The notes beneath the pieces are model-generated. The model did not search any database, had not been told where the DNA came from, and saw nothing but the letters and a program-made list of their open reading frames with translations. Positions 6,718 to 37,148 of a stretch of 64,000 nt of DNA are shown in pieces. Source of the DNA: Thermodesulfobacteriota bacterium (lineage in GTDB: Bacteria; Desulfobacterota; Desulfarculia; JACQYL01); contig CAXXLZ010000001.1 in NCBI GenBank assembly GCA_963675595.2, forward strand, positions 1,312,001 through 1,376,000. The letters run 5' to 3'. Every line of letters begins with the position of its first letter. Position 1 is the first letter of the stretch. The position numbers and the translations under genes are program-made.

Positions 6718-8205
6718 TCAGTACCCCGCAACCCCGGCCCTATAGTCAAAATACTCGTCCGGAACCTCATACCCTCCGCCCGAAACCAACGAGGCCCCCC
6801 CGGAAGTCTCCGCGAACATCGCCGCATACTGCTGCGCGTCATGCACATGCGAATAGATATTCTTCTTCGGCTCGTCCCGGTATATCTCCTCACCCCCGGA
6901 TACCTGCACCCGCGCAAAACAGTACCCGCCCAAGAACCCCTTCTTGAGCCTCTTACACTTCGAGGAAAGCAGATATCCGGGACCACCACCCGCCGCCAGT
7001 TTCGTCAAATAACTCTTCACCGCGTCCGTCCGAGGGGTAATCATGTTCGTCTTCGCAGGCGTCACATTGATACCAACCTTGTCCTTTAAAATCTGGATAG
7101 CCCAAATCTCATCCGCCTCCGACTTCCGGTTTCCGCTCGGATCACCCGTATGAAACACCTCGTATCCACTGAAGTTGTTCGCCAAATACGGCTTCACCTT
7201 GTCCCGACCAAACTGTCTCGCCCCCATGTTCTCCGTATACAACTCGTCCAACGTCCTCAACTGACCGCTCGGCAACAACTGATTCACCACAATCGCCGGC
7301 GTCCTCCCGAAGTCCCACCCAACAATCAACGGCAAACCCTGCACCGGAACCAACGCCGTCCTGGACCCGTGCACCAAATCGTTGTACTCCGGATACACGG
7401 GCTTTCCGTGCTGCACCGTCCCGTATCTCCCCTCCAGGTAAACCCGGATCCACTCCCGAGTCTTACCCGGAATCTGGCTCATCCAGTAATCAAATCCGAG
7501 AGTATGATTCTCCACATTCTCCGCGGGAGGATACGCGCCCTGCCCGTAATTCGGCTCATACCTGCCGCTCCCCGTCTCCACTTCAAACACCGCCGGAGGC
7601 TGCTGGAAAAACTCGTACCCCTCCAGCTCCTCCTCCTCCGCCATCGAATACCACCAGTGATCGTCGTCCGGGGGGTTCGTATCCATGATAAGTCCGCGCC
7701 AATTAAACCCGCCCCACTTCTTCGGCGGATACCGACCCGTTCGACCAAGGGCCATATCAAGGACGGATCGCGGAATCTGTCTCGCCTCGTTGACCCATAT
7801 TCCCGTCAGCTCGAGGGAAAGCAGCTTCTTTATGTCCTCCGGCCGGTCAAGCGCCAAAAAATAAATCTCCGCATCAATCCCATACTTCTTCGAATACAAC
7901 TTCCCGCAAATCGGGTGAGAAAACTTCACATTGAATATCGAAGGAGGAAACCACTCCTGCACCGTCTTGATCGTCGTCGTCTCAAGCTCCGGATACGTAT
8001 TCCGTATCACCGCCCACCGACTACGCTTCCACCCCTTATACTCAACCTGCCTATTGCACCGAATAAACATCTCCAACGTACAACCAACCGACTTACCACT
8101 CCCAATCGGACCCATAATCCCACGCACCAAGGCGTTAGACCGATGAAAGTTCGAAATAGTCGGCGTCGCTATGTAATCTACGTTTTCGTTCGGTGCCAAT
8201 CTCAT
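6718..8205 (-). CDS. Terminase large subunit
   Basis: Walker A GPIGSGKS, Walker B IWVNEAR, motif III DTNPP, nuclease GWDFG ... HVHDAQQY. Confidence 0.93.
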   Translation of the reverse strand: MRLAPNENVDYIATPTISNFHRSNALVRGIMGPIGSGKSVGCTLEMFIRCNRQVEYKGWKRSRWAVIRNTYPELETTTIKTVQEWFPPSIFNVKFSHPICGKLYSKKYGIDAEIYFLALDRPEDIKKLLSLELTGIWVNEARQIPRSVLDMALGRTGRYPPKKWGGFNWRGLIMDTNPPDDDHWWYSMAEEEELEGYEFFQQPPAVFEVETGSGRYEPNYGQGAYPPAENVENHTLGFDYWMSQIPGKTREWIRVYLEGRYGTVQHGKPVYPEYNDLVHGSRTALVPVQGLPLIVGWDFGRTPAIVVNQLLPSGQLRTLDELYTENMGARQFGRDKVKPYLANNFSGYEVFHTGDPSGNRKSEADEIWAIQILKDKVGINVTPAKTNMITPRTDAVKSYLTKLAAGGGPGYLLSSKCKRLKKGFLGGYCFARVQVSGGEEIYRDEPKKNIYSHVHDAQQYAAMFAETSGGASLVSGGGYEVPDEYFDYRAGVAGY

Positions 8206-27429: not shown

Positions 27430-29565
27430 ATGACTGAAACCTGCCAAGGAGTCCTACAGGACGTCCGAATCTACAACGCCGCTTCCGGTTGGGGATTCGC
27501 TCGGCTCGTCGGCCAAGAATACAAGGTGGTTGGATGCTTCCCGGCCCTTGAGCCCGGCGACTACTGCGAATTCACCGGGGAATGGACCGAGCATCCGAAG
27601 TACGGGAAACAGTTCAAGGCGTCGTCGGTGTCCATCTCGGTCCCAAAGGATTCCATGGGCTTGCGGAAGTACCTGCAGCAGCGCTTGCCGTGGATCGGTC
27701 CCGTCGCGGCCGGAAGATTGGTCGATGATTACGGGGACCGACTCTTCGACGTCATCCAAAACAACCCCATGGAGTTGATATCCGTAAAGGGTATTACCGA
27801 AGAAAGGGCGTTGAAGATCCACGAGGCATTCCTGTCCGGCCAAAAAGACAAGGACCTGGATATCTTTTTTGCTACCCATAATTTGACCACGGGAATGGTT
27901 GCCCGGCTGGTGGAACGATACGGGGACAAGTCCAAAGCCGCGTCTACCATCAAGGCCGATCCGTATTTGCTGGCTGATGATGTTTATGGCGTCGGCTTCA
28001 AAAAGGCTGACGCCATAGCGTTGTCGGTCGGCATTCCGAAACGCTCCCCGCGGAGAATCAAGGCGGGGATACTATGGTTGCTGAAGGACGCATCCGAGAG
28101 AGCGGGCCATTGTTTTTTGCCCGCATCCGAGATGGGAAGCCTTGGATACAAGCTCCTGGAAGTCTCTCGTGGCGACCTGGGGGACCCCGTTCGTGAGTTG
28201 GCGGACGAGGACGGCGTTATTGTCGAAGGGGACAGGATTGCCCTGTCGGAACTGTATCATGCCGAGGAGGAGATTGCTTCGGCGTTGTTGCGTTTGGCGT
28301 CGGCGCCACATCACGCGGTGATGCGCTCCCTGTCTCAGGACACCTTGGATTCCCTGGATGACGATCAACGACGGGCTCTTACTCTGGCTCTCGAAAGCAA
28401 GGTAAGCGTCATCACGGGAGGACCCGGAACCGGCAAGACGTACACCATTCAAAGAATTCTGGAAGCCCTAGGAGATCGAAAGATTGCTTTGGCCGCGCCC
28501 ACGGGCAAAGCGGCGAAGAGGATGGAGGAGATGACGTCCAGGCCGGCGCAGACCATTCACCGGTTGTTGGAGTTTGTTCCCGCTCCGGCACCCGGGTTTC
28601 GTCGAAACCGGCAGAACCCATTGGATTTCGATTGCGTCATTATCGACGAGACATCCATGGTGGATGTCTCGTTGATGAAGGCATTTTTACGGGCCGTGGA
28701 TCCCGATATGACGCAGTTGATTTTTGTCGGAGACGTGGATCAGCTCCCGAGCGTAGGCCCCGGCATGGCGCTTCGGGACATGATCGACTCTGAGAAGATA
28801 CCCACGGCTCGGCTGACGACATTACACAGACAGTCTGAAAAGTCGTTTATTGCATTGAATGCCCGTGCGGTGAATCGAGGGGAAAAGCTCATTTTGAACG
28901 TAGAAAATAGCGACTTTCACTTCATTCAAGTTGAAGACAAAGACAAGATTCCCGAGAAGATTACTCAAATCGTCAACAGCGTTCCGTCTCAACCCTTCGG
29001 GGTCCCCCTATGGGACATACAGGTTTTATGCCCACAGAGGGTAGGCCCCATCGGCGTAAACGCGCTGAATCCTTTGTTGCGCCCCTTATTCAATCCGGAA
29101 GGCATGGAGCTATCCGGGTTTGGCGGGCTGTATACGGGAGACAGGGTGATTCAGACACGCAACAATTACGACCTTGGAATATTCAACGGCGAAATCGGGG
29201 AGGTTTTACTGCGACAGCCCGAACCGGAAGGAGGACCGGAAGAACTAGACTATGTCGCCGTGCAGTTTCCGCAAGGGATTGTGCCCTATTCGAAGTTGAC
29301 CTGCTCTGAGTTGCAGCCCGCTTATGCGCTGACAATTCACAAGTCTCAGGGATCGGAGTTCCCCTGCGTCATTGTTCCCTTGCACACGACAAATTTCATC
29401 ATGCTCAAGCGGCCGTTGCTGTATACGGCGATTACGCGGGCGAAACAATTGTTGGTTTTGGTTGGGAGCGAGAAAGCCATGAAGGTGGCGATTAAGACGT
29501 TGGACACGTCAAATAGGTATACGCGACTGAAAGAGATGTTATGCCAGGAGGCGGTTAATCGGTAA
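27430..29565 (+). CDS. recD2: RecD2-like SF1B 5'-3' helicase
   Basis: HPKYGKQF, GVGFKKAD, GGPGTGKT, IIDETSM, GDVDQLPSVGPG, AYALTIHKSQGSEF, LLYTAITRAK. Confidence 0.92.
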   Translation: MTETCQGVLQDVRIYNAASGWGFARLVGQEYKVVGCFPALEPGDYCEFTGEWTEHPKYGKQFKASSVSISVPKDSMGLRKYLQQRLPWIGPVAAGRLVDDYGDRLFDVIQNNPMELISVKGITEERALKIHEAFLSGQKDKDLDIFFATHNLTTGMVARLVERYGDKSKAASTIKADPYLLADDVYGVGFKKADAIALSVGIPKRSPRRIKAGILWLLKDASERAGHCFLPASEMGSLGYKLLEVSRGDLGDPVRELADEDGVIVEGDRIALSELYHAEEEIASALLRLASAPHHAVMRSLSQDTLDSLDDDQRRALTLALESKVSVITGGPGTGKTYTIQRILEALGDRKIALAAPTGKAAKRMEEMTSRPAQTIHRLLEFVPAPAPGFRRNRQNPLDFDCVIIDETSMVDVSLMKAFLRAVDPDMTQLIFVGDVDQLPSVGPGMALRDMIDSEKIPTARLTTLHRQSEKSFIALNARAVNRGEKLILNVENSDFHFIQVEDKDKIPEKITQIVNSVPSQPFGVPLWDIQVLCPQRVGPIGVNALNPLLRPLFNPEGMELSGFGGLYTGDRVIQTRNNYDLGIFNGEIGEVLLRQPEPEGGPEELDYVAVQFPQGIVPYSKLTCSELQPAYALTIHKSQGSEFPCVIVPLHTTNFIMLKRPLLYTAITRAKQLLVLVGSEKAMKVAIKTLDTSNRYTRLKEMLCQEAVNR

Positions 29566-29643: not shown

Positions 29644-30411
29644 ATGAAAATGGGTGAAGCTGCAAAGAAGATTCAAGAAGAGCAAATGAAAGAGACGACG
29701 ACTGCGCCGGCCGAGACGGAAGAAACGGAAGGCAAACGAGGAAGAAAGCCGAAGGCCAAGTCGGAGGCGGGGCCGAAACAGGAAGGCCCGATGTTTCTTC
29801 CCATCGCCGAGCGGACATTCAGGATTACCATGACGGAAACCATGCTTGGGACCATCCCGGCCAACCAGCAGATTTTTTCCGACTACGTCAATTCCAAGGC
29901 CATGACTCCGGAGGAGAGGGAGGAAGAGGCGCTGCTTCAGTCCGGGGAAATCGACGAGGAAACCGGGCTTCCGGCGAACGATCATCATACCGGATTTTTC
30001 CGCGACTCCGCGGGCATCTATCTGATGAACTACCACATCAAGGGCTTCTTGAAGGAGGCCGGGAACATCCTAAAGGAAGCCGCCAAAGTAAAGGCGTTGC
30101 GCTCGAAGATAGATAACAACGTCTTTGTGTTTCCCCGCAAAATCTACCTTGCCAAAACCCACAGCGGCGTCCTGGAACGCCCCCTGCGAGCCCAAACGGC
30201 GCAGGGGCCCCGAGTCGCCCTGGCTCAATCCCTGACCGTGGACGCCGGGATTGCCTTCAATATTACGATTCGACTCCTGGACCACAAAGAGCTGAGTTGG
30301 TCGTTGATCGAATTGCTCCTGGACTACGGGGAGCTGAAAGGTCTTGGGCAGTGGAGAAACGGCGGGTATGGGACGTTTTCCTGGGAAGACATCACCCCCA
30401 AAAAGAAGTAA
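29644..30411 (+). CDS. Stand-alone Cas7/RAMP-superfamily protein
   Basis: RAMP hallmarks: first strand FRITMTETMLG, IYLMNYHIKGFLKEA helix, C-terminal Gly-rich loop LLDYGELKGLGQWRNGGYGTF; RBS GAAAGGA. Confidence 0.8.
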   Translation: MKMGEAAKKIQEEQMKETTTAPAETEETEGKRGRKPKAKSEAGPKQEGPMFLPIAERTFRITMTETMLGTIPANQQIFSDYVNSKAMTPEEREEEALLQSGEIDEETGLPANDHHTGFFRDSAGIYLMNYHIKGFLKEAGNILKEAAKVKALRSKIDNNVFVFPRKIYLAKTHSGVLERPLRAQTAQGPRVALAQSLTVDAGIAFNITIRLLDHKELSWSLIELLLDYGELKGLGQWRNGGYGTFSWEDITPKKK

Positions 30412-30412
30412 C

Positions 30413-32024
30413 GGCAAGGTCGCCCCATTTGCCGCGCCGCCTCGGTTAAGCCAAGCTTCGTACTGCAAGAGCATCGCCCTGTTCCTCGAGGCGAGGTATC
30501 GGCGTGGCAAAGCAATGCAGTGAAATGAGGGCTCAGGCTATGCCTGGTAGTGGGTGGCACGTAAAGGCGGAGCATAGCATGGCATGGTTCTGTAACGGCG
30601 AAGCACGGCGTGGCGCCGCAACGCTCAGGCAAAGTTAGGTGTGGTGTTGCGCCGAGGGCGTTGGCCGGGCGCAGTAGGGCACCGTGAAACTCTGGAAGCA
30701 TAGGTAATCCTGAGTGTCGTTGGAGCAAGGAGGCGCGGAGGCGAAGCCCCGTTGGAGATGGCGGTGCATCGGAACGGCTAAGCCGAGCGATGAAGGGACG
30801 AGACATGCAAGGGCGGAGTGAAGCAGACCGGAGTAACGCCGCGGCATAGCGTGGGTTCAGCAGGGCAACGCTTCGGCACGGCGAAGCAGCGTGATGAAGA
30901 TGAACAAGAAGAGTGTTGCAAGGGAGCAGTAAAGTGTGGAGGAGCAGTGCATCGGCGAGGCGGAGTTGTGCGGGGTTCGTGCACGGAGAGGTAATCCGCT
31001 GAGATGATACGCACGGGCGTGGTCGCGCGCGGAAAAGCAGCGCTTGGGCGGTTCACAGTGTGGAGGCGTTTTGCTTTGGCATAGTCGCTTGAAGAGCCGT
31101 GGTGTATGGCTTTGGCAGGGCGAGGTAAGGCGGGGCAGAGCTTTGGCTTGGAGATGTGCTGCTTTCCTTTGTAACGGCAATTCATGGCGTATATGGGCAC
31201 GTTGAAGCTGCGGTACTGCATTTTACAGCAAGGAGCGTCATGCGCATCAGAGAATGCAAAGGAAAAGCAACGTAATGCAAAGGAAAAGCAACGTTCCGTT
31301 CCTTCCGGCGCAGGCGGGGTACAGCGTCGCGCTTTTTGGCTTAGGCAAAGTGAAGTTCCGCGTGACCCACCAAAGGCAAAGCTCTGTTGAGCTATGTTTC
31401 GGCGATGTTTCGTCCTACAAGGCGCAGGAACGCACAGGCAGGGCGTAGATAGGCATCGGCTTAGCGGGGTACTTACTGCGTCGGCAAGGTTGTGAGAGGC
31501 CGAGTTCGGCGTCGGCAAGGTGCGGCGTTATAACGCTGCGTAGCGCTTTGGCGTAGCGAAGTTTAGCCGAGGCGAAGTTAGGTAAGGCGACGATGCGAAT
31601 TGGCTTGGTACAGCGCTGCACGGACCTGTAATGGTTGTGCCAAGTTCTGAGCAGCCCGGAGATAAACGCAAAGGCACCGCGGCGTCTTCCTGTGCACTAA
31701 GGAGTAAAGGCGTAGCGGGGTACGGATGTGCAACGGCGGAGTAGGAACAAGGCGATGAAGCGTTGTGCGAAGGCACTGCATGGCAAGGTCATGTATACCA
31801 CGGGCGAGGTGTCGTTGGTCAAAGTTCAGCGGCGGCTTAGCTAAGCATAGTGCAGCCGGGGCTATGTAAAGCCGGCTCCGCCAAGGCGTTGCAAAGCTCA
31901 GTTGTGGCAAAGTGCGGTTCAGCGGCGGCAACGCATAGCACGACAAAGTAGCGCGACGGTAGTGCTTAGTTCGGCAAAACAGCGCGACGGCAGTGTCCAA
32001 CATTGCGGTGCTTCGGCGCGGCAA
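30413..32024 (+). ncRNA. Putative guide-RNA array of pentameric NGY-NN units
   Basis: Starts 2 nt after the RAMP stop codon; persistent 5-nt periodicity, e.g. GGCAG GGCGA GGTAA GGCGG GGCAG AGCTT (31114-43); no credible CDS. Repeat structure is seen directly, RNA function is inferred. Confidence 0.7.
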
Positions 32025-32040
32025 ACGAAAGGAAGAAAAA

Positions 32041-32184
32041 ATGACTTACTCGACATTGAAGGAAGCCGGGATTTCGACCCTTCGGGCCTTGGAAAAGAAG
32101 CGGATTACCATCGACGCGCGGCTTTGGTGGTTCATGTTGGGCGGTAGCGTGGTGGGCTTGTTGATGTTGTGGGTAGGGAAATGA
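32041..32184 (+). CDS. Small membrane protein
   Basis: RBS AAAGGAAG; C-terminal TM helix; stop overlaps the MTase ATG. Confidence 0.55.
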   Translation: MTYSTLKEAGISTLRALEKKRITIDARLWWFMLGGSVVGLLMLWVGK

Positions 32185-33317
32185 TCCGAACCGCCCACTT
32201 GTTCGCCGGTGCCGGGGGTGGAATTTACGCCGATTTAATCCTCGGGCACAAGCCCGTGCTGGCCGTCGAAAATAATCCGGAATGCTGCAAGATGCTTGAG
32301 GAGCGAAAACGTGAAGGATGGTGGCCCGAGCTCGACATTCAATGCTGCGACATCCGAGAATTTGACTTCAGCCCCTGGGCCGGACGAGTGGATCAAATCG
32401 CAGCGGGCTTCCCTTGCCAGGATATTTCGTATGCTGGAAGCGGTGATGGAATACGAGGATCACGAAGCGGCCTCGTCTGGGAGGTCTTCCGCGCAATCGA
32501 CGCTATTCGACCTCGATGGGTTTTCCTCGAAAACAGCCCCGCAATACGGACCAAGGGACGGCGGGAAATCATTGCCGCCTTGGTGGAGAAAGGATATTCC
32601 TGGCGAGACGGAACGCTTGCCGCGGCTCATGTCGGAGCGGGCCATCTCCGCAATCGCTGGTGGCTGCTTGCTGCCGACGCTCTGCGCCAGAGATCACAAA
32701 AACAGCGGCGGCATGGTTTTAACGCCAAGAGGGCAGACGCGCCTGCCCACCGCATTAAAACATATGCTGCCCACGATCACGGCAAGCATGGAAACATGGG
32801 CGGACTTTGTTCAGGCGCAATACCACAGCTCGAAGAGGCCGGATTATCAGATAGCGAAGCTACTCCCGACGCTGTTAGCATCAAGCGGGGGAAGAACTCT
32901 TCCGCTAGGCACAACGATAACCGGTATGGCCCCGGATGGCAAAAAGCGGACGGTGGGATTGGACCAAGCCATCAAGATGTTGCCGACGCTGACCGCATCG
33001 GACGCCACGGGAGGATCCGGGACTTCGCCGAACCGGAAAGGCGGCCCGAATCTGCGGACGATGCTGCCGACTCTTTGCGCGACCGACTACAAATTGCCAT
33101 TCAACGAGGAGGGCTATCAGAGAGCGAGTCAAGAACGGTCGAGGCCGTTGCGCGATACACTGCCACATACTACTGGTCACCGCCTGACGCCGGGGTTCTG
33201 CGAGTGGTGGATGGGGTTCCCGCTCGGAGGCACCGCATACAGGCGTTAGGCAACGCCCAGGTGCCTCTACAAGCGGCCATGGCGTGGATATTGTTGATGA
33301 GGGGAGGAATCCATTGA
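32181..33317 (+). CDS. DNA (cytosine-5) methyltransferase, main subunit
   Basis: Motifs I LFAGAGG, IV GFPCQD, VI LENS, VIII HLRNRW, X LGNAQVP. Confidence 0.88.
   Translation: MIRTAHLFAGAGGGIYADLILGHKPVLAVENNPECCKMLEERKREGWWPELDIQCCDIREFDFSPWAGRVDQIAAGFPCQDISYAGSGDGIRGSRSGLVWEVFRAIDAIRPRWVFLENSPAIRTKGRREIIAALVEKGYSWRDGTLAAAHVGAGHLRNRWWLLAADALRQRSQKQRRHGFNAKRADAPAHRIKTYAAHDHGKHGNMGGLCSGAIPQLEEAGLSDSEATPDAVSIKRGKNSSARHNDNRYGPGWQKADGGIGPSHQDVADADRIGRHGRIRDFAEPERRPESADDAADSLRDRLQIAIQRGGLSESESRTVEAVARYTATYYWSPPDAGVLRVVDGVPARRHRIQALGNAQVPLQAAMAWILLMRGGIH
32296..33249 (+). CDS. Nested +1-frame ORF, putative MTase second subunit (motif IX)
   Basis: 317-codon open frame inside the MTase gene with repeated LPTL/LPTI units, ending RLTPGFCEWWMGFP; start codon uncertain. 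Confidence 0.6.
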   Translation: MRSENVKDGGPSSTFNAATSENLTSAPGPDEWIKSQRASLARIFRMLEAVMEYEDHEAASSGRSSAQSTLFDLDGFSSKTAPQYGPRDGGKSLPPWWRKDIPGETERLPRLMSERAISAIAGGCLLPTLCARDHKNSGGMVLTPRGQTRLPTALKHMLPTITASMETWADFVQAQYHSSKRPDYQIAKLLPTLLASSGGRTLPLGTTITGMAPDGKKRTVGLDQAIKMLPTLTASDATGGSGTSPNRKGGPNLRTMLPTLCATDYKLPFNEEGYQRASQERSRPLRDTLPHTTGHRLTPGFCEWWMGFPLGGTAYRR

Positions 33318-34382: not shown

Positions 34383-34766
34383 ATGACGGCCCAAACAAAC
34401 GACGAAACTCTCGACTCCCTGGGTAAAAATCTGACCGCCGAACAGGTTGCGGCGCATTTCGGCTTGAAACCGAGATTTGTTCGTGAGCATTATGAGGCAT
34501 TCGGCGGTACGAGGATCTCGAAGCGTGTGCTCATTTTCCCCGAAAAGGAGGTTTATCGTGCCCTATCAATACACCACACCCAAGGGAGAGAAGAAATGGA
34601 AGGGACAGGTCGTCAAGGACGGTCGCCGCGTCGTTCAGACTTTCAAGACGAAGGCGAAGGCCGTGGAATGGGAGGTGCTGACGAAGAAGCTGATGGACGA
34701 CGGAGAAGAGCCGTTTACCGAAAACCGAGAGCGACAAAGGATCCGCACGGGATATTCTCTCGGTGA
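34383..34766 (+). CDS. Putative excisionase (HTH)
   Basis: NLTAEQVAAHFGLKPRFV; immediately upstream of and overlapping the integrase. Confidence 0.6.
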   Translation: MTAQTNDETLDSLGKNLTAEQVAAHFGLKPRFVREHYEAFGGTRISKRVLIFPEKEVYRALSIHHTQGREEMEGTGRQGRSPRRSDFQDEGEGRGMGGADEEADGRRRRAVYRKPRATKDPHGIFSR

Positions 34767-35676
34767 ATGGGCAACGGACTATCTGGACTACTTCCGAGAA
34801 CACGGCCGTGAAGCTACATACAAGGAGAAGCAGGCGGTGTTTCGGCACTTCTTCAAAACGTTCGACAAGGACATGCCTGTTCGGTCGCTGACCAAGAAAG
34901 ACGTGCTTCGCTACATGACGGTGCAACACAAAATCAGGACCGGTAACGCGGTGAACAAGGACGTGAGGAAGAACCTGAAGGCGGCTTTCAATTGGGCGAT
35001 TCGGTATGGAGTAATCGACCCTATGCCAAACCCGTTCGAAGTGGATCGCCTCCCCGAAGAGCGTCACGACCGGTATGTTCCCCCGGAGGCCGACTTCTGG
35101 AAGGTCTACCAGGTGGTTACCGGCCCGGCAGACCGGCTCTTACTGTTGGCCTACATCTACACCGGCGCCCGAAGGACGGAGCTCTTCACCCTTCGGTGGG
35201 TTGATGTGGATTTCGCCGGGAGCCGAATCAGGCTGTGGACCAACAAGCGAAAGGGTGCCCGAGAGTACGACTGGATTGAGATGCGCGAAACCCTGTTTAA
35301 CTCGCTGCTTGCGCACAAACAGGAAAGTCGTTCCGAATGGGTGTTTCCGAATCCGAAGACCGGGCTTCCATACACCGATCGTAAAAAGTGGTTGGCGGAA
35401 AGGTGCGCGGAAGCCAAGGTCCGCCCCTTCGGCTTCCACGCGATCAGGCATCTTACGGCGTCCATTCTGGCGTCGAATGGGGTGCCCGTGATCGCCATTC
35501 AAGAGATTCTTCGGCACCGGAATTCTCGGACGACCGAACGATACCTTCACAACCGGTTCGACATGCGATCCGCGTTGAAAGTCCTTGAGGGCGGAAAACC
35601 CCAGGAAGAACCCTCGAAAAACCCTCCAACCCAAACCGTAGGTACATACCCTCTAAGGGTATTGTCAAAAACTTGA
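34558..35676 (+). CDS. int: Tyrosine integrase
   Basis: TGARRTE (R), FHAIRH (HxxR), LRH, TERY (Y); GTG start after AAAGGAGG; adjacent to tRNA. Confidence 0.92.
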   Translation: MPYQYTTPKGEKKWKGQVVKDGRRVVQTFKTKAKAVEWEVLTKKLMDDGEEPFTENRERQRIRTGYSLGEWATDYLDYFREHGREATYKEKQAVFRHFFKTFDKDMPVRSLTKKDVLRYMTVQHKIRTGNAVNKDVRKNLKAAFNWAIRYGVIDPMPNPFEVDRLPEERHDRYVPPEADFWKVYQVVTGPADRLLLLAYIYTGARRTELFTLRWVDVDFAGSRIRLWTNKRKGAREYDWIEMRETLFNSLLAHKQESRSEWVFPNPKTGLPYTDRKKWLAERCAEAKVRPFGFHAIRHLTASILASNGVPVIAIQEILRHRNSRTTERYLHNRFDMRSALKVLEGGKPQEEPSKNPPTQTVGTYPLRVLSKT

Positions 35677-35693
35677 ACAATTTCAGTCTGTTA

Positions 35694-35771
35694 TGGCGGG
35701 AGCGACGAGACTCGAACTCGCGACTTCCGGCGTGACAGGCCGGCGTTCTGACCAAACTGAACTACGCCCCC
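35694..35771 (-). tRNA. tRNA-Asp(GTC); prophage attachment site
   Basis: GGGGGCG...CCGGC-CTGTCAC-GCCGG...GTTCGAGTC...CGCTCCCGCCA cloverleaf. Confidence 0.95.
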
Positions 35772-35879
35772 GCAATCTTCAAGAAGCACCTTTCTATCCG
35801 CGTTGAAGAAATTTGTCAACAGAATTTGTTGGAAAAAAAAGAGCGCCCTCCCCCGGCATTAGGCGGGGCTTCTCCCCGG

Positions 35880-37148
35880 TCAGTCCCCGAGTAGCCCCAT
35901 GAGCGCGGAAACGAACCAACGCTTGGCAAGCACCCCGCCGGCGGCCCATTCATCCGCGCCCACGTCCATGGCGGCCCCACGAGGTCGGGATTCCCCGTCG
36001 AAATCATCCGTCAGCCCGGAGATGGAAATCCCCTGATCCACGACCGATTCCACCGCGGTTTGAAGATGCAGGTCTCCCTCCGCGGGGTTCACGAACCAGG
36101 CGCCTTCCGCTTCAGTGACGTTGTTGTGGAGTTCGGCGGAGGCTTCGTTCCGCTCGCGAATCAACCGATTGGTCAGATTGTTGGCGATGAAAACCCCCGT
36201 GGTGGCCGTAAAACGATACTCCACGGCATTGGCATAATCGTGTTCCATGAAGATGGTATTGTTGTAGACCTGGGTTTCCGGTGAGGATTCCAGTCCGATC
36301 CCCACGTCGCCGAATCCGTCGGAGTCGTCATGATAGATCATGTTGTTCCGGATGACGCCTCTTAGATGCCCACGGTCCCCCAGTCCGAAACCAATGCCTC
36401 GATCACAGTTCACGATCAAGTTGCGTTCCACCAGCGTGTCTTGGGAGTCGGACCAGAAATGAACCGCGTGCTCCGCCACGGCGCCGCCGGGGCTTCGAAT
36501 TCGACGAAACACGTTGTCTCGGATGATCCAGCCTTTCGCCTGATGGGCGTCCACGCCGCCGATATACCATTGGGGCCCGTAATCGTTCGTATACTCAAAG
36601 AGACATCCCTCCACCAGCCCATTGTCGGAGCCCACCGAGGGGTTGTCCGCATCGTAGGATACCTTGAGCATTTGCTCGAAAGTGTCCTGAATACGCACGT
36701 TCCGGATCACCGGACCATCGGCGTCAAGTTCCCCGTGGACCTGTATTCCGTGGTTGGCGACCCTACGAACGGTGACGTTCTCCAGAGTGAATCCCGATGC
36801 GGCGACTTCAAAACCATGCGGTACCGAACCGTACATGCCTCCCCCCTCAATGATCACCGCATCGCGGTTTCCGGATGAACCCCGCACCGTGATCCCGTCC
36901 GCGCCGATCCACAGGGCCTGACTCAATGTATAGACGCCGTCCGCCACTTCGATGTCGTTATCTCCCCCGGCATTGGCGAGCGCCACGGCCCGGACCAATT
37001 CGGCGGTAGTGGTCACCGAAACCGCGCGGGCTTGGGAAGCACCACAAATCATCAGTAGGCCGACCATCCACCATAATACCGAAGGCCGACATGCCCCTCG
37101 AGGGCACCTGAAGACACGGAAGGCTTCACGTGTATTACAATTGGCCAT
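35880..37148 (-). CDS. Secreted right-handed beta-helix (pectin-lyase-like) protein
   Basis: Signal peptide; repeated beta-helix motifs (IIRDNVF, VERNLI, IRNNMI); C-terminal DFDG..R....DVGADE. Confidence 0.75.
   Translation of the reverse strand: MANCNTREAFRVFRCPRGACRPSVLWWMVGLLMICGASQARAVSVTTTAELVRAVALANAGGDNDIEVADGVYTLSQALWIGADGITVRGSSGNRDAVIIEGGGMYGSVPHGFEVAASGFTLENVTVRRVANHGIQVHGELDADGPVIRNVRIQDTFEQMLKVSYDADNPSVGSDNGLVEGCLFEYTNDYGPQWYIGGVDAHQAKGWIIRDNVFRRIRSPGGAVAEHAVHFWSDSQDTLVERNLIVNCDRGIGFGLGDRGHLRGVIRNNMIYHDDSDGFGDVGIGLESSPETQVYNNTIFMEHDYANAVEYRFTATTGVFIANNLTNRLIRERNEASAELHNNVTEAEGAWFVNPAEGDLHLQTAVESVVDQGISISGLTDDFDGESRPRGAAMDVGADEWAAGGVLAKRWFVSALMGLLGD

What the first reader, a model, noticed from the sequence alone, without database searches (positions are those of the whole stretch)
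29644..32024. Candidate minimal RNA-guided system: lone phage Cas7/RAMP gene plus a 1.6-kb NGY-NN pentamer array
Seen: a 255-aa ORF with RAMP motifs (FRITMTETMLG, YLMNYHIKGFLKEA, Gly loop GLGQWRNGGYGTF). Two nt after its stop begins a ~1.6-kb gene-free tract on the same strand, which is unusual in an otherwise densely coding phage. The tract has a 5-nt rhythm with a semi-fixed triplet (GGY most common, then AGY/CGY/TGY) and a free dinucleotide, e.g. GGCGG AGCAT AGCAT GGCAT GGTTC TGTAA (30566-95) and GGCAG GGCGA GGTAA GGCGG GGCAG AGCTT (31114-43). I found no cas1/2/5/6/8/10 and no repeat-spacer CRISPR array in the window. Established: Cas7/RAMP proteins polymerise along guide RNAs with a fixed nucleotide step. 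Inference: the protein coats transcripts of this tract one pentamer per subunit, the fixed triplet being the protein handle and the NN pairs spelling a discontinuous target code, perhaps against competing phages or host genes. From memory this resembles recently reported phage 'VIPR'-type RAMP + GGY/NN repeat-RNA systems, which I cannot verify here; this copy has a relaxed first position.
Basis: partly seen in the sequence, partly recalled or inferred. Interest (0 to 1): 0.97.

Follow-up and report, generated by a model that had tools for sequence, protein, structure and literature searches.

The report
Prophage VIPR guide-RNA system
A prophage carries a small Cas7-like protein gene followed by a 1.6-kb array of five-letter RNA repeats, which is a new example of the recently described phage VIPR RNA-guided silencing systems rather than a new kind of system.

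Summary
ORF 29644-30411 encodes a protein whose AlphaFold model matches Cas7/Csm3/Cmr4 backbones (Foldseek probability 1.00). The gene-free tract behind it has a strong 5-nt rhythm (lag-5 z = 8.1).

The repeat is N-G-Y-N-N. G is 90% and Y 87% conserved, and the other three positions vary. The array is punctuated: 50 of 57 register changes are +1, made by a G-G-C hexamer. This gives units of 5n+1 nt, most often 31.

The pairing is a family trait. 87 of 98 distinct loci with a homologue carry such a tract within 400 nt on the same strand, and 1406 of 1570 register changes there are +1.

This matches VIPR, described in three 2026 bioRxiv preprints, which also mention YNNNG repeats and tail-less "staggered" arrays. 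A profile of the family aligns with the validated SUSP1 Vipr (hhalign E 5.8e-5, G-loop aligned).

The host element is a ~60.6-kb prophage at tRNA-Asp. I found no targets, no RNA data and no conserved accessory gene.

Verdict: a real VIPR locus and a new member of a known kind. The 5n+1 punctuation and three variable positions remain mechanistically open.

The parts
29644..30411 (+). vipr gene: a 255-aa stand-alone RAMP (Cas7-like) protein. The conserved core runs from about residue 50 to 250. It is preceded by a ~50-aa charged N-terminal extension that most relatives lack. An alternative start at M49 (29788) cannot be excluded.
   Evidence: ORF and motifs. No Pfam, PHROG, NCBIfam or PADLOC family. 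701 homologues at E <= 1e-3, most of 185-230 aa. AlphaFold2 pLDDT 85, pTM 0.73. Foldseek to Cas7 of type VII, Csm3, Cmr4 and Cas7-11 at probability 1.00, with TM 0.33-0.59 normalised to the single-domain targets. phmmer to PDB type VII Cas7 at the G-loop, E 0.003. hhalign to SUSP1 Vipr, E 5.8e-5. G-loop G233-L-G-Q-W-R-N-G-G-Y-G243; G233, G235, Q236, R238 and G243 are invariant in all 33 aligned sequences.
30441..32025 (+). Putative vrRNA array of about 300 pentamer repeats N-G-Y-N-N. Single extra G's (G-G-C hexamers) break it into 47-57 units of 5n+1 nt, with 31 nt the commonest. It has no conserved tail, no spacer-repeat structure and no ribozyme.
   Evidence: Viterbi segmentation and position frequencies. 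50 of 57 register changes are +1; unit lengths 31 (x20), 21 (x6), 26 (x5), 36 (x5). Junction logo G .96, G .92, C .76. 303 repeats. No Rfam match at E <= 1. No recurrent long repeat. RNA folding z-scores 0.05 and -0.94.
31253..31294 (+). Exact tandem duplication of a 21-nt (4x5+1) unit inside the array.
   Evidence: Tandem Repeats Finder: period 21, 2.0 copies, 100% match. Also family D8. Otherwise adjacent units are no more alike than distant ones (0.279 against 0.273).
27430..29565 (+). RecD2-type SF1 helicase gene, 78 nt upstream on the same strand. It is a neighbour, probably part of the phage replication module, and is not shown to belong to the system.
   Evidence: Pfam AAA_19, AAA_30, HHH_RecD2, UvrD_C_2. 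PHROG 4412 at E 5.6e-149. The PADLOC best hit is the type IV-D RecD model at E 2.6e-71. No homologue is present in any of 103 relatives' loci.
34477..35771 (.). Tyrosine integrase (34477-35676, +) and tRNA-Asp (35694-35771, -), which form the right end of the prophage that carries the system.
   Evidence: Pfam Phage_integrase and PHROG 1. tRNA-Asp. A 34-nt direct repeat of the tRNA 3' part lies 60.6 kb to the left, outside the window. Head, portal and terminase genes are at 2-11 kb.

Best explanation
This is a VIPR (Viral Interference Programmable Repeat) locus carried by a ~60.6-kb tailed prophage integrated at tRNA-Asp.

Shown here: the 255-aa protein is a Vipr-type single-domain RAMP. The 1.6-kb tract behind it, on the same strand and with no promoter-like or terminator-like site between them, is its repeat array. 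Each repeat is a G-Y handle followed by three variable letters.

Inferred by analogy with the SUSP1 system (cryo-EM and genetics in the preprints, not tested here): the tract is co-transcribed with or just after vipr. One Vipr protomer binds each pentamer and flips out the G-Y handle, so the protomers form a helical filament. The exposed variable letters pair with double-stranded DNA of a competing phage, satellite or prophage in a gapped register and silence its transcription.

Specific to this clade and shown here: the array has no structured tails. It is punctuated by one extra G (G-G-C) about every 5-7 repeats.

My inference from that: this +1 register break ends one filament and starts the next. 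The transcript would then yield about 50 short guides of roughly one helical turn each, either cut apart or simply coated separately.
For: - Fold: AlphaFold2 pLDDT 85. 159 PDB chains match at E <= 1e-3, and all the listed top ranks are Cas7-family backbones. The best viral match is a phage protein that its depositors named a RAMP superfamily protein.
- Link to a validated Vipr: the SUSP1 ORF L104:28474-29061(-) carries 13 of the 14 residues that the cryo-EM preprint numbers. GGY-NN repeats lie beside it. The family profile aligns to it at hhalign E 5.8e-5 over 125 columns, and the G-loop G-D-W-R aligns with G-Q-W-R.
- Array: period-5 statistics; G 90% and Y 87%; +1 punctuation.
- Between related arrays G and Y change in 5.5% and 8.3% of aligned sites, and the three N positions in 15-18%. 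That is the pattern of a fixed handle plus a variable code.
- Co-occurrence: 87 of 98 distinct loci have such a tract within 400 nt of the homologue on the same strand, against 9 tracts elsewhere in 1.04 Mb.
- None of the window's neighbouring replication, methylase or integrase genes recurs beyond a single locus (AAA ATPase 1 of 103, integrase 1 of 103); only a Bro-N anti-repressor ~14 kb upstream has homologues, in 8 of 103. Gene and array therefore travel as a module.
- At least 572 homologues lie on IMG/VR viral contigs.
- Prophage setting.
- The published description of VIPR fits: GGY/NN or YNNNG repeats, minimal loci, mostly proviral, 'staggered' arrays.
Against: - No expression or processing data: no RNA run holds the stretch.
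- No target was found under any of ten reading rules in the own genome, the window, or 2.4 Mb of relatives' loci. Real hits equalled shuffled controls.
- One pattern searched in IMG/VR and in the only 3 genomes of the family gave nothing.
- The sequence link to SUSP1 Vipr is weak (probability 65.7%), and tblastn does not reach SUSP1.
- The array lacks the 9-16-repeat plus conserved-tail form of the characterised type II vrRNAs.
- No conserved vap gene was seen; the best neighbour cluster is an HTH protein in 11 loci.
- The preprint states that the ribozyme and single-vrRNA architectures were confirmed by small-RNA sequencing. It does not say this of the staggered one.
Confidence: 0.88

Rival explanations
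1. The components are the same but the code differs. Because three positions per repeat vary and the G1 pocket is relaxed, this clade would read three letters per pentamer, either contiguously or as 3+1. The G-G-C hexamers would be true guide boundaries, so each guide is only 4-8 repeats long. This would be a variant mechanism, not the published 2+1 rule.
For: The three N positions vary equally between related arrays (15-18%). The residue aligned with SUSP1 D177, which the preprint reports as contacting G1, is an invariant Q in all 33 sequences. Units of 5n+1 nt are family-wide. One 20-of-21 match under a 3+1 rule was seen in the own genome.
Against: That single match does not respect unit borders and stands alone. 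I estimate chance at roughly 0.02-0.1 after multiple rules. No 3-letter rule gave more seed hits than controls in relatives' loci. Stop triplets are only mildly depleted (8 seen, 15.7 expected). The preprint found targets for other types with the 2+1 rule.
Confidence: 0.2
2. The tract is a protein-coding or formerly coding repeat, for example a pentapeptide-repeat or frameshifted gene. In that case the 5-nt rhythm is a by-product.
For: The only other period-5 hit in the genome is a pentapeptide-repeat gene. A 246-aa ORF lies on the minus strand.
Against: No + strand ORF exceeds 68 aa, and all frames are broken. Four minus-strand ORFs have no Pfam match. The period is 5 with +1 slips, not 3 or 15. 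The same tract type sits beside vipr homologues in 87 of 98 loci while its variable positions diverge.
Confidence: 0.02
3. The tract is a cis-acting DNA element of the phage replication module, such as origin iterons or a binding array for the helicase or primase. The RAMP-like protein would be unrelated to it.
For: It lies among primase, exonuclease, ATPase and RecD2 helicase genes.
Against: None of those replication genes recurs beside the tract in relatives: 0 of 103 loci for primase, exonuclease and RecD2, and 1 of 103 for the AAA ATPase. The vipr homologue does recur. The signal is strand-specific (G-Y on the vipr strand). About 300 units with variable letters do not look like iterons.
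Confidence: 0.03

Closest known systems
VIPR systems (Vipr protein + vrRNA), bioRxiv 10.64898/2026.04.26.720920, 10.64898/2026.04.26.720927 and 10.64898/2026.10.15.759431; the characterised example is type II of Escherichia phage SUSP1
   Same: A ~20-kDa single-domain RAMP with RRM core, G-loop and thumb. It is encoded by a (pro)phage, with no cas genes or CRISPR array. A flanking non-coding tract on the same strand is made of 5-nt repeats with a fixed G/Y handle and hypervariable letters. The G-loop W-R is shared with SUSP1 Vipr.
   Different: The handle is G-Y, not G-G-Y; this is the YNNNG variant named in the preprint's Methods. There are no separate ~100-nt vrRNAs with 9-16 repeats and a pseudoknotted tail. 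Instead there is one continuous 1.6-kb array of about 50 units of 5n+1 nt, separated by a G-G-C hexamer. I found no vap gene. Q stands where SUSP1 has D177. Sequence identity is too low for BLAST.
'Staggered vrRNA arrays' of the same preprint (legend of fig. S18, read as text only)
   Same: Tail-less arrays in which the end of one vrRNA is the start of the next, with a 1-nt relation between neighbours. This fits the +1 register break seen here.
   Different: I could not see the figure or the data files. I therefore cannot say whether the published arrays are of this clade, whether the 1 nt is an overlap or an insertion, or whether 5n+1 units and G-G-C junctions are described. The text says the other two architectures were confirmed by small-RNA sequencing and does not say this of the staggered one.
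CRISPR-Cas Cas7 backbone proteins (type VII Cas7, Csm3, Cmr4, Cas7-11)
   Same: Best structural matches. A G-loop motif is shared with type VII Cas7. Established for Cas7: it polymerises along a guide RNA at a fixed step.
   Different: No Cas7 sequence family matches. There is no repeat-spacer array, no other cas gene nearby, and a step of 5 nt rather than 6.

Membership tests
VIPR | Protein with a RAMP fold: RRM core, glycine-rich loop and thumb hairpin | tested here: met
   AlphaFold2 pLDDT 85. Foldseek to Cas7-family chains at probability 1.00. Invariant G-loop residues. A long beta-hairpin at 175-199 and a two-helix insert at 75-98 appear in the model's secondary structure. Calling these the thumb and the bundle is my reading.
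VIPR | Homology to an experimentally validated Vipr (SUSP1) | tested here: inconclusive
   hhalign of the 33-sequence profile against the SUSP1 Vipr: probability 65.7%, E 5.8e-5, 125 columns, G-loop aligned. tblastn finds no SUSP1 match. The preprint's seed accessions could not be looked up (one search returned no UniProt ids).
VIPR | Non-CRISPR context: no cas genes and no repeat-spacer array beside the RAMP gene | tested here: met
   The neighbours are a helicase, a methyltransferase, an integrase and replication genes. No CRISPR or other RNA family is in the window. The genome outside the window was not searched for cas genes.
VIPR | Flanking tract of at least four tandem YNNGG repeats or the alternative NNNGG / YNNNG / NNNNG repeats | tested here: met
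   About 300 N-G-Y-N-N (= YNNNG) repeats. The criterion is quoted from the preprint's Methods.
VIPR | Gene and repeat tract co-occur across relatives | tested here: met
   87 of 98 distinct loci: 50 downstream only, 34 upstream only, 3 on both sides. Of the 11 without a tract within 400 nt, 3 have one 600-1100 nt away and 1 is cut 76 nt after the gene.
VIPR | Viral or proviral location | tested here: met
   A ~60.6-kb element bounded by a 34-nt tRNA-Asp repeat, with head, portal, terminase and integrase genes. At least 572 homologues are on IMG/VR contigs.
VIPR | Accessory gene (vap) next to vipr | tested here: not met
   No neighbour family is shared widely. The best is an HTH protein in 11 of the loci compared, and RecD2 is in 0 of 103. 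The preprint says loci 'typically' hold a vap, so I treat this as a usual feature, not a defining one.
VIPR | Tract is transcribed and the RNA co-purifies with the protein | not testable with these tools
   No RNA holder is listed for the stretch. The laid runs are DNA contigs.
VIPR | Variable letters match natural DNA targets in a gapped (one-skip) register | tested here: inconclusive
   No excess over shuffled controls under 10 rules. One pattern gave 0 hits in IMG/VR and in the 3 family genomes. Suitable pangenome data are lacking.
VIPR type II (SUSP1-like) | Discrete vrRNAs of 9-16 GGY-NN repeats, each capped by a conserved structured 3' tail | tested here: not met
   No recurrent tail-sized repeat. 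No structure signal. Units are mostly 4-7 repeats. The SUSP1 locus, read for comparison, shows the tails.
CRISPR-Cas (class 1) Cas7 | Match to a Cas7 sequence family, neighbouring cas genes and a repeat-spacer array | tested here: not met
   No Pfam, NCBIfam or PADLOC family for the protein. No CRISPR array.

The most novel reading that the evidence does not exclude
In this large clade the guide array is written with a punctuation mark. A single inserted G (G-G-C) shifts the pentamer register by +1 every 4-8 repeats, ending one Vipr filament and nucleating the next. One 1.6-kb transcript would then give about 50 tail-less guides of roughly one helical turn each. Each repeat would present three, not two, programmable letters, which implies a reading code different from the published two-plus-one-skip rule.
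Probability: 0.2. Interest if true: 0.7.

Novelty: new member of a known kind. Interest (0 to 1): 0.42.

Why it matters
VIPR is a very recent discovery, so each well-described natural locus helps map its diversity.

This one belongs to a clade that is abundant in environmental and gut viral contigs. It has one of the longest arrays among the 98 loci compared. It also shows clearly an architecture the preprints mention only briefly and did not confirm by RNA sequencing:
- no tails;
- units of 5n+1 nt;
- a G-G-C junction;
- a two-letter handle with three variable letters.

If the punctuation defines guide ends, or if the third variable letter is read, the rules for programming such systems would differ from SUSP1. 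That matters both for predicting natural targets and for using these small proteins as tools.

As a finding of this scan it is mainly a correct recognition of a known system.

Tried and rejected
**Sequence-family searches.** The protein has no match in Pfam, PHROGs, NCBIfam or PADLOC.

**RNA families and structure.** Rfam gave nothing over the locus at E <= 1 and nothing over the whole window at gathering score, so no ribozyme or CRISPR repeat. The promoter/terminator scan found no more sites than in shuffles, and none between vipr and the array. RNA folding of two 300-nt pieces gave z = 0.05 and -0.94, so there is no structured element.

**Target searches.**
- Own genome: 10-repeat windows under rules with 0, 1 or 2 skips gave 26, 26 and 18 hits with at most 3 mismatches, and no rule stood out.
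- Own genome, 7-repeat three-letter rules: the apparent excess (29 against 8) was one 3-mismatch hit to a 15-copy element.
- A lone 20-of-21 hit under a 3+1 rule does not extend and ignores unit borders.
- Spaced-seed look-up of 7,670-7,896 guide windows from all arrays against 2.4 Mb of masked loci under ten rules: real counts equalled reversed and shuffled controls. An earlier brute-force version timed out.
- Unit-level search of the 64-kb window: real equals shuffled.
- One pattern had 0 hits in IMG/VR. It also had 0 hits in the family's genomes, of which the collection holds only 3 including this one.

**Expression.** No RNA holder is listed. Laying three DNA contig sets showed only identical low-depth pieces of the same element.

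**Accessory gene.** None of the window's flanking module genes recurs beyond a single locus.

**Array growth by duplication.** Apart from one exact 21-nt duplication, adjacent units are no more alike than distant ones.

**Seed accessions.** Cluster look-up of ten homologues gave GenBank ids only, so I could not tie the family to the preprint's UniProt seeds or to one of its seven types.

**Second genomic period-5 locus.** Rejected as a pentapeptide-repeat gene.

**Not run.** I did not run complex prediction, because filament formation depends on RNA.

**Supplements.** I did not ask for any paper's supplementary files. Figures S16-S18 and data S3-S4 of 10.64898/2026.04.26.720920 may already show this clade, its type and its array form.
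Full report
**1. The observation**

The quoted pentamer strings are at the stated places.

Between the stop codon and the next gene (start near 32041) no + strand ORF exceeds 68 aa. Four minus-strand ORFs of 106-245 aa have no Pfam match.

The 1,612-nt tract is G-rich (G 584, A 365, C 357, T 306). Its same-base autocorrelation peaks at lags 5, 10, 15/16, 21 and 26, with z = 8.1, 6.8, 4.8/5.9, 6.2 and 8.8 against 200 shuffles. The drift from 15 to 16 and from 20 to 21 already shows the period is slightly above 5, and the Fourier peak for G is at 5.15.

As a genome-wide control I scanned all 271,746 overlapping 200-nt windows of the 6.8-Mb genome on both strands for a G-Y signal of period 5.0-5.25. 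Only two loci passed. One is this tract. The other is a 656-aa pentapeptide-repeat protein gene whose 15-nt period gives a harmonic.

**2. Anatomy of the array**

A six-state Viterbi segmentation (five repeat phases plus background) places the regular array at about 30441-32025.

| Repeat position | Composition |
|---|---|
| 1 | A .30, C .19, G .28, T .23 |
| 2 | G .90 |
| 3 | C .59, T .28 |
| 4 | A .40, G .32, T .21, C .07 |
| 5 | near even |

The fixed handle is therefore G-Y, not G-G-Y, and three letters vary. About 300 repeats are present (303).

The register is not constant. Of 57 register changes, 50 add exactly one nucleotide. The in-register stretches are 31 nt (20 times), 21 (6), 26 (5) and 36 (5), that is 5n+1. 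At the junction the logo reads G (.96), G (.92), C (.76), and the preceding repeat also prefers C (.76). So each unit opens with a canonical G-G-C, followed by 3-6 relaxed N-G-Y repeats.

I found no recurrent tail-like element, no Rfam family, and no folding signal (z = 0.05 and -0.94). The only exact repeat is a 21-nt unit duplicated in tandem at 31253-31294. Otherwise neighbouring units are no more alike than distant ones.

No promoter-like or + strand terminator-like site separates the gene from the array. This is compatible with co-transcription but does not show it.

**3. The protein**

No curated family matches it. It has 701 homologues at E <= 1e-3, most of 185-230 aa and unnamed. The window's copy has an extra charged N-terminal ~50 residues that only a few relatives share. 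A start at M49 is possible.

With a 33-sequence alignment, AlphaFold2 gives pLDDT 85 and pTM 0.73. Foldseek against the PDB returns 159 chains at E <= 1e-3. Every listed top rank is a Cas7-family backbone subunit (type VII Cas7, Csm3, Cmr4, Cas7-11), at probability 1.00 and TM up to 0.59 by target length. phmmer also finds the type VII Cas7 at the glycine loop (E 0.003). In the viral structure library the best match is a phage protein that its depositors called a RAMP superfamily protein (36% identity).

**4. Relatives**

A pattern scan confirmed by tblastn found 23 loci in species-representative genomes and at least 572 on IMG/VR viral contigs, of which 80 were kept. I removed five duplicate loci.

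Of the 98 distinct loci, 87 have an N-G-Y period-5 tract of at least 120 nt within 400 nt of the homologue on the same strand. It is downstream in 50, upstream in 34 and on both sides in 3. Only 9 such tracts lie elsewhere in 1.04 Mb. Of the 11 without, three have a tract 600-1100 nt away and one contig ends 76 nt after the gene.

In these arrays 1406 of 1570 register changes are +1. Unit lengths peak at 31 (329), 26 (302), 36 (140), 21 (138), 41 (52) and 46 (23) (the five duplicates were still included in that count). The junction logo is again G-G-C/T. The 5n+1 punctuation is thus a trait of the clade, not of this phage.

In eight alignable pairs of related arrays, G and Y differ at 5.5% and 8.3% of sites and the three variable positions at 15-18%. 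The pairs share members, so they are not independent.

None of the window's flanking module genes recurs beyond a single locus in the relatives' loci. RecD2, primase, exonuclease and methylase are in 0 of 103, the AAA ATPase in 1 and the integrase in 1. Only a Bro-N anti-repressor ~14 kb upstream has homologues, in 8. The most widespread neighbour family among relatives is a small HTH protein in 11 loci. Gene plus array therefore move as a two-part module.

**5. Setting**

The window lies in a 1.78-Mb contig of a 6.8-Mb, 56% G+C genome.
- A tyrosine integrase (34477-35676) abuts tRNA-Asp (35694-35771).
- A 34-nt copy of the tRNA's 3' part lies 60.6 kb to the left, outside the window.
- Between them are major head, portal/adaptor and large and small terminase genes, an anti-repressor, a primase, an exonuclease, an ATPase, a RecD2-type helicase and a C5 methyltransferase.

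This is a complete-looking tailed prophage. The genome has one vipr homologue only.

**6. Comparison with what is known**

A literature search found three 2026 bioRxiv preprints on VIPR.

From 10.64898/2026.04.26.720920 I read the Results, the Discussion, Methods sections 18, 20 and 27, and the supplementary-figure legends as text. It reports:
- Vipr is a ~20-kDa ancestral RAMP found mostly in proviruses and viruses.
- vrRNAs of the SUSP1 and P. fulva clades have 9-16 YNNGG repeats and a conserved tail.
- The NN letters pair with DNA with one skipped base.
- Natural targets are satellites and prophages.
- There are seven types and six vap genes.
- Alternative repeats NNNGG, YNNNG and NNNNG exist.
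- Array forms include 'staggered arrays with overlapping vrRNAs', ribozyme-interspersed arrays and single vrRNAs. The preprint says 'the latter two' were confirmed by small-RNA sequencing.

From 10.64898/2026.04.26.720927 I read the outline and the first part of the Results. It reports one protomer per repeat and a helix of six subunits per turn without DNA and five with DNA. G1 is contacted by H17 and D177, G2 by R138 and W178, and Y3 by the next protomer.

Of 10.64898/2026.10.15.759431 I saw the abstract and outline only.

To test membership directly I fetched the SUSP1 genome. The 195-aa ORF at L104:28474-29061(-) carries 13 of the 14 residues numbered in the cryo-EM preprint and is flanked by GGT-NN repeats with tails. 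The family profile aligns to it with hhalign probability 65.7% and E 5.8e-5 over 125 columns. The G-loops are in register, G-V-G-D-W-R against G-L-G-Q-W-R. The residue at the D177 position is an invariant Q in this clade. I read that, as an inference only, as a possible reason for the relaxed first G.

**7. Mechanism**

- *Shown:* a RAMP-fold protein, an adjacent strand-specific array with a fixed G-Y handle and variable letters, their co-inheritance, and the prophage setting.
- *Inferred from the SUSP1 work:* transcription of the array, one protomer per pentamer, a helical filament, gapped pairing with double-stranded DNA of a competing element, and silencing.
- *My own inference:* the +1 G-G-C junction breaks the 5-nt spacing that protomer contacts need. 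It would therefore end one filament and, by offering a full G-G-Y, start the next. The modal 5-6 repeats per unit equal one turn of the SUSP1 filament, which may be a coincidence.

Whether the third variable letter is read is open. My target searches could not decide it, because no rule gave hits above controls and the collection holds only three genomes of this family.

**8. Verdict**

The finding is real and correctly interpreted, but it describes a member of a system already in print, so its novelty is modest. Two things remain of interest: the clear 5n+1, tail-less, G-Y/NNN array grammar of a very abundant clade, and the unusual size of this array (about 50 units). The grammar may be the 'staggered' form that the preprint mentions without experimental confirmation. 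I could not see the relevant supplementary figures or data.

Noticed in passing
window 1-35771 and beyond the left end (34-nt repeat at window coordinate -24909): The system sits in a ~60.6-kb prophage bounded by a 34-nt direct repeat of the 3' part of tRNA-Asp. Head, portal/adaptor and terminase genes lie at 2-11 kb, and the integrase is at the right end.
   Followed up: partly
window 27430-29565: The best PADLOC match of the RecD2-type helicase just upstream of vipr is the type IV-D CRISPR RecD model (E 2.6e-71). A phage family (PHROG 4412, E 5.6e-149) fits far better, and no homologue lies near vipr in any of 103 relatives' loci. A role as an accessory helicase in this one phage is not excluded.
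   Followed up: partly
window 30441-32025, fourth letter of each pentamer: C is strongly avoided at the first variable position after the G-Y handle: 7% here and 9-13% in relatives. This is stronger than any codon-position bias I would expect. It may reflect a constraint of the protein or avoidance of G-C pairing within the array.
   Followed up: no
G000 contig C2, about 34,650-36,620 (locus L106 6649-8619, minus strand): A 656-aa pentapeptide-repeat protein gene is the only other place in the genome that passes the period-5 G-Y scan. It is a useful false-positive example for such scans.
   Followed up: yes
window 29644-29790: The vipr ORF has a ~50-residue K/E-rich N-terminal extension, modelled at low confidence, that most relatives lack and a few share. 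Shine-Dalgarno-like sequences precede both the first ATG and the ATG of M49, so the true start is uncertain.
   Followed up: no
loci L020 and L021 (one 86-kb contig): The same vipr-array locus appears twice, 47.9 kb apart, on one metagenomic contig. This looks like a concatemeric assembly of a circular or terminally redundant phage genome.
   Followed up: no
window 32169-33317: A C5 cytosine methyltransferase gene follows the array. Pfam matches only its N-terminal half (residues 7-174), and a long overlapping ORF (32296-33249) lies in another frame. I did not examine it.
   Followed up: no
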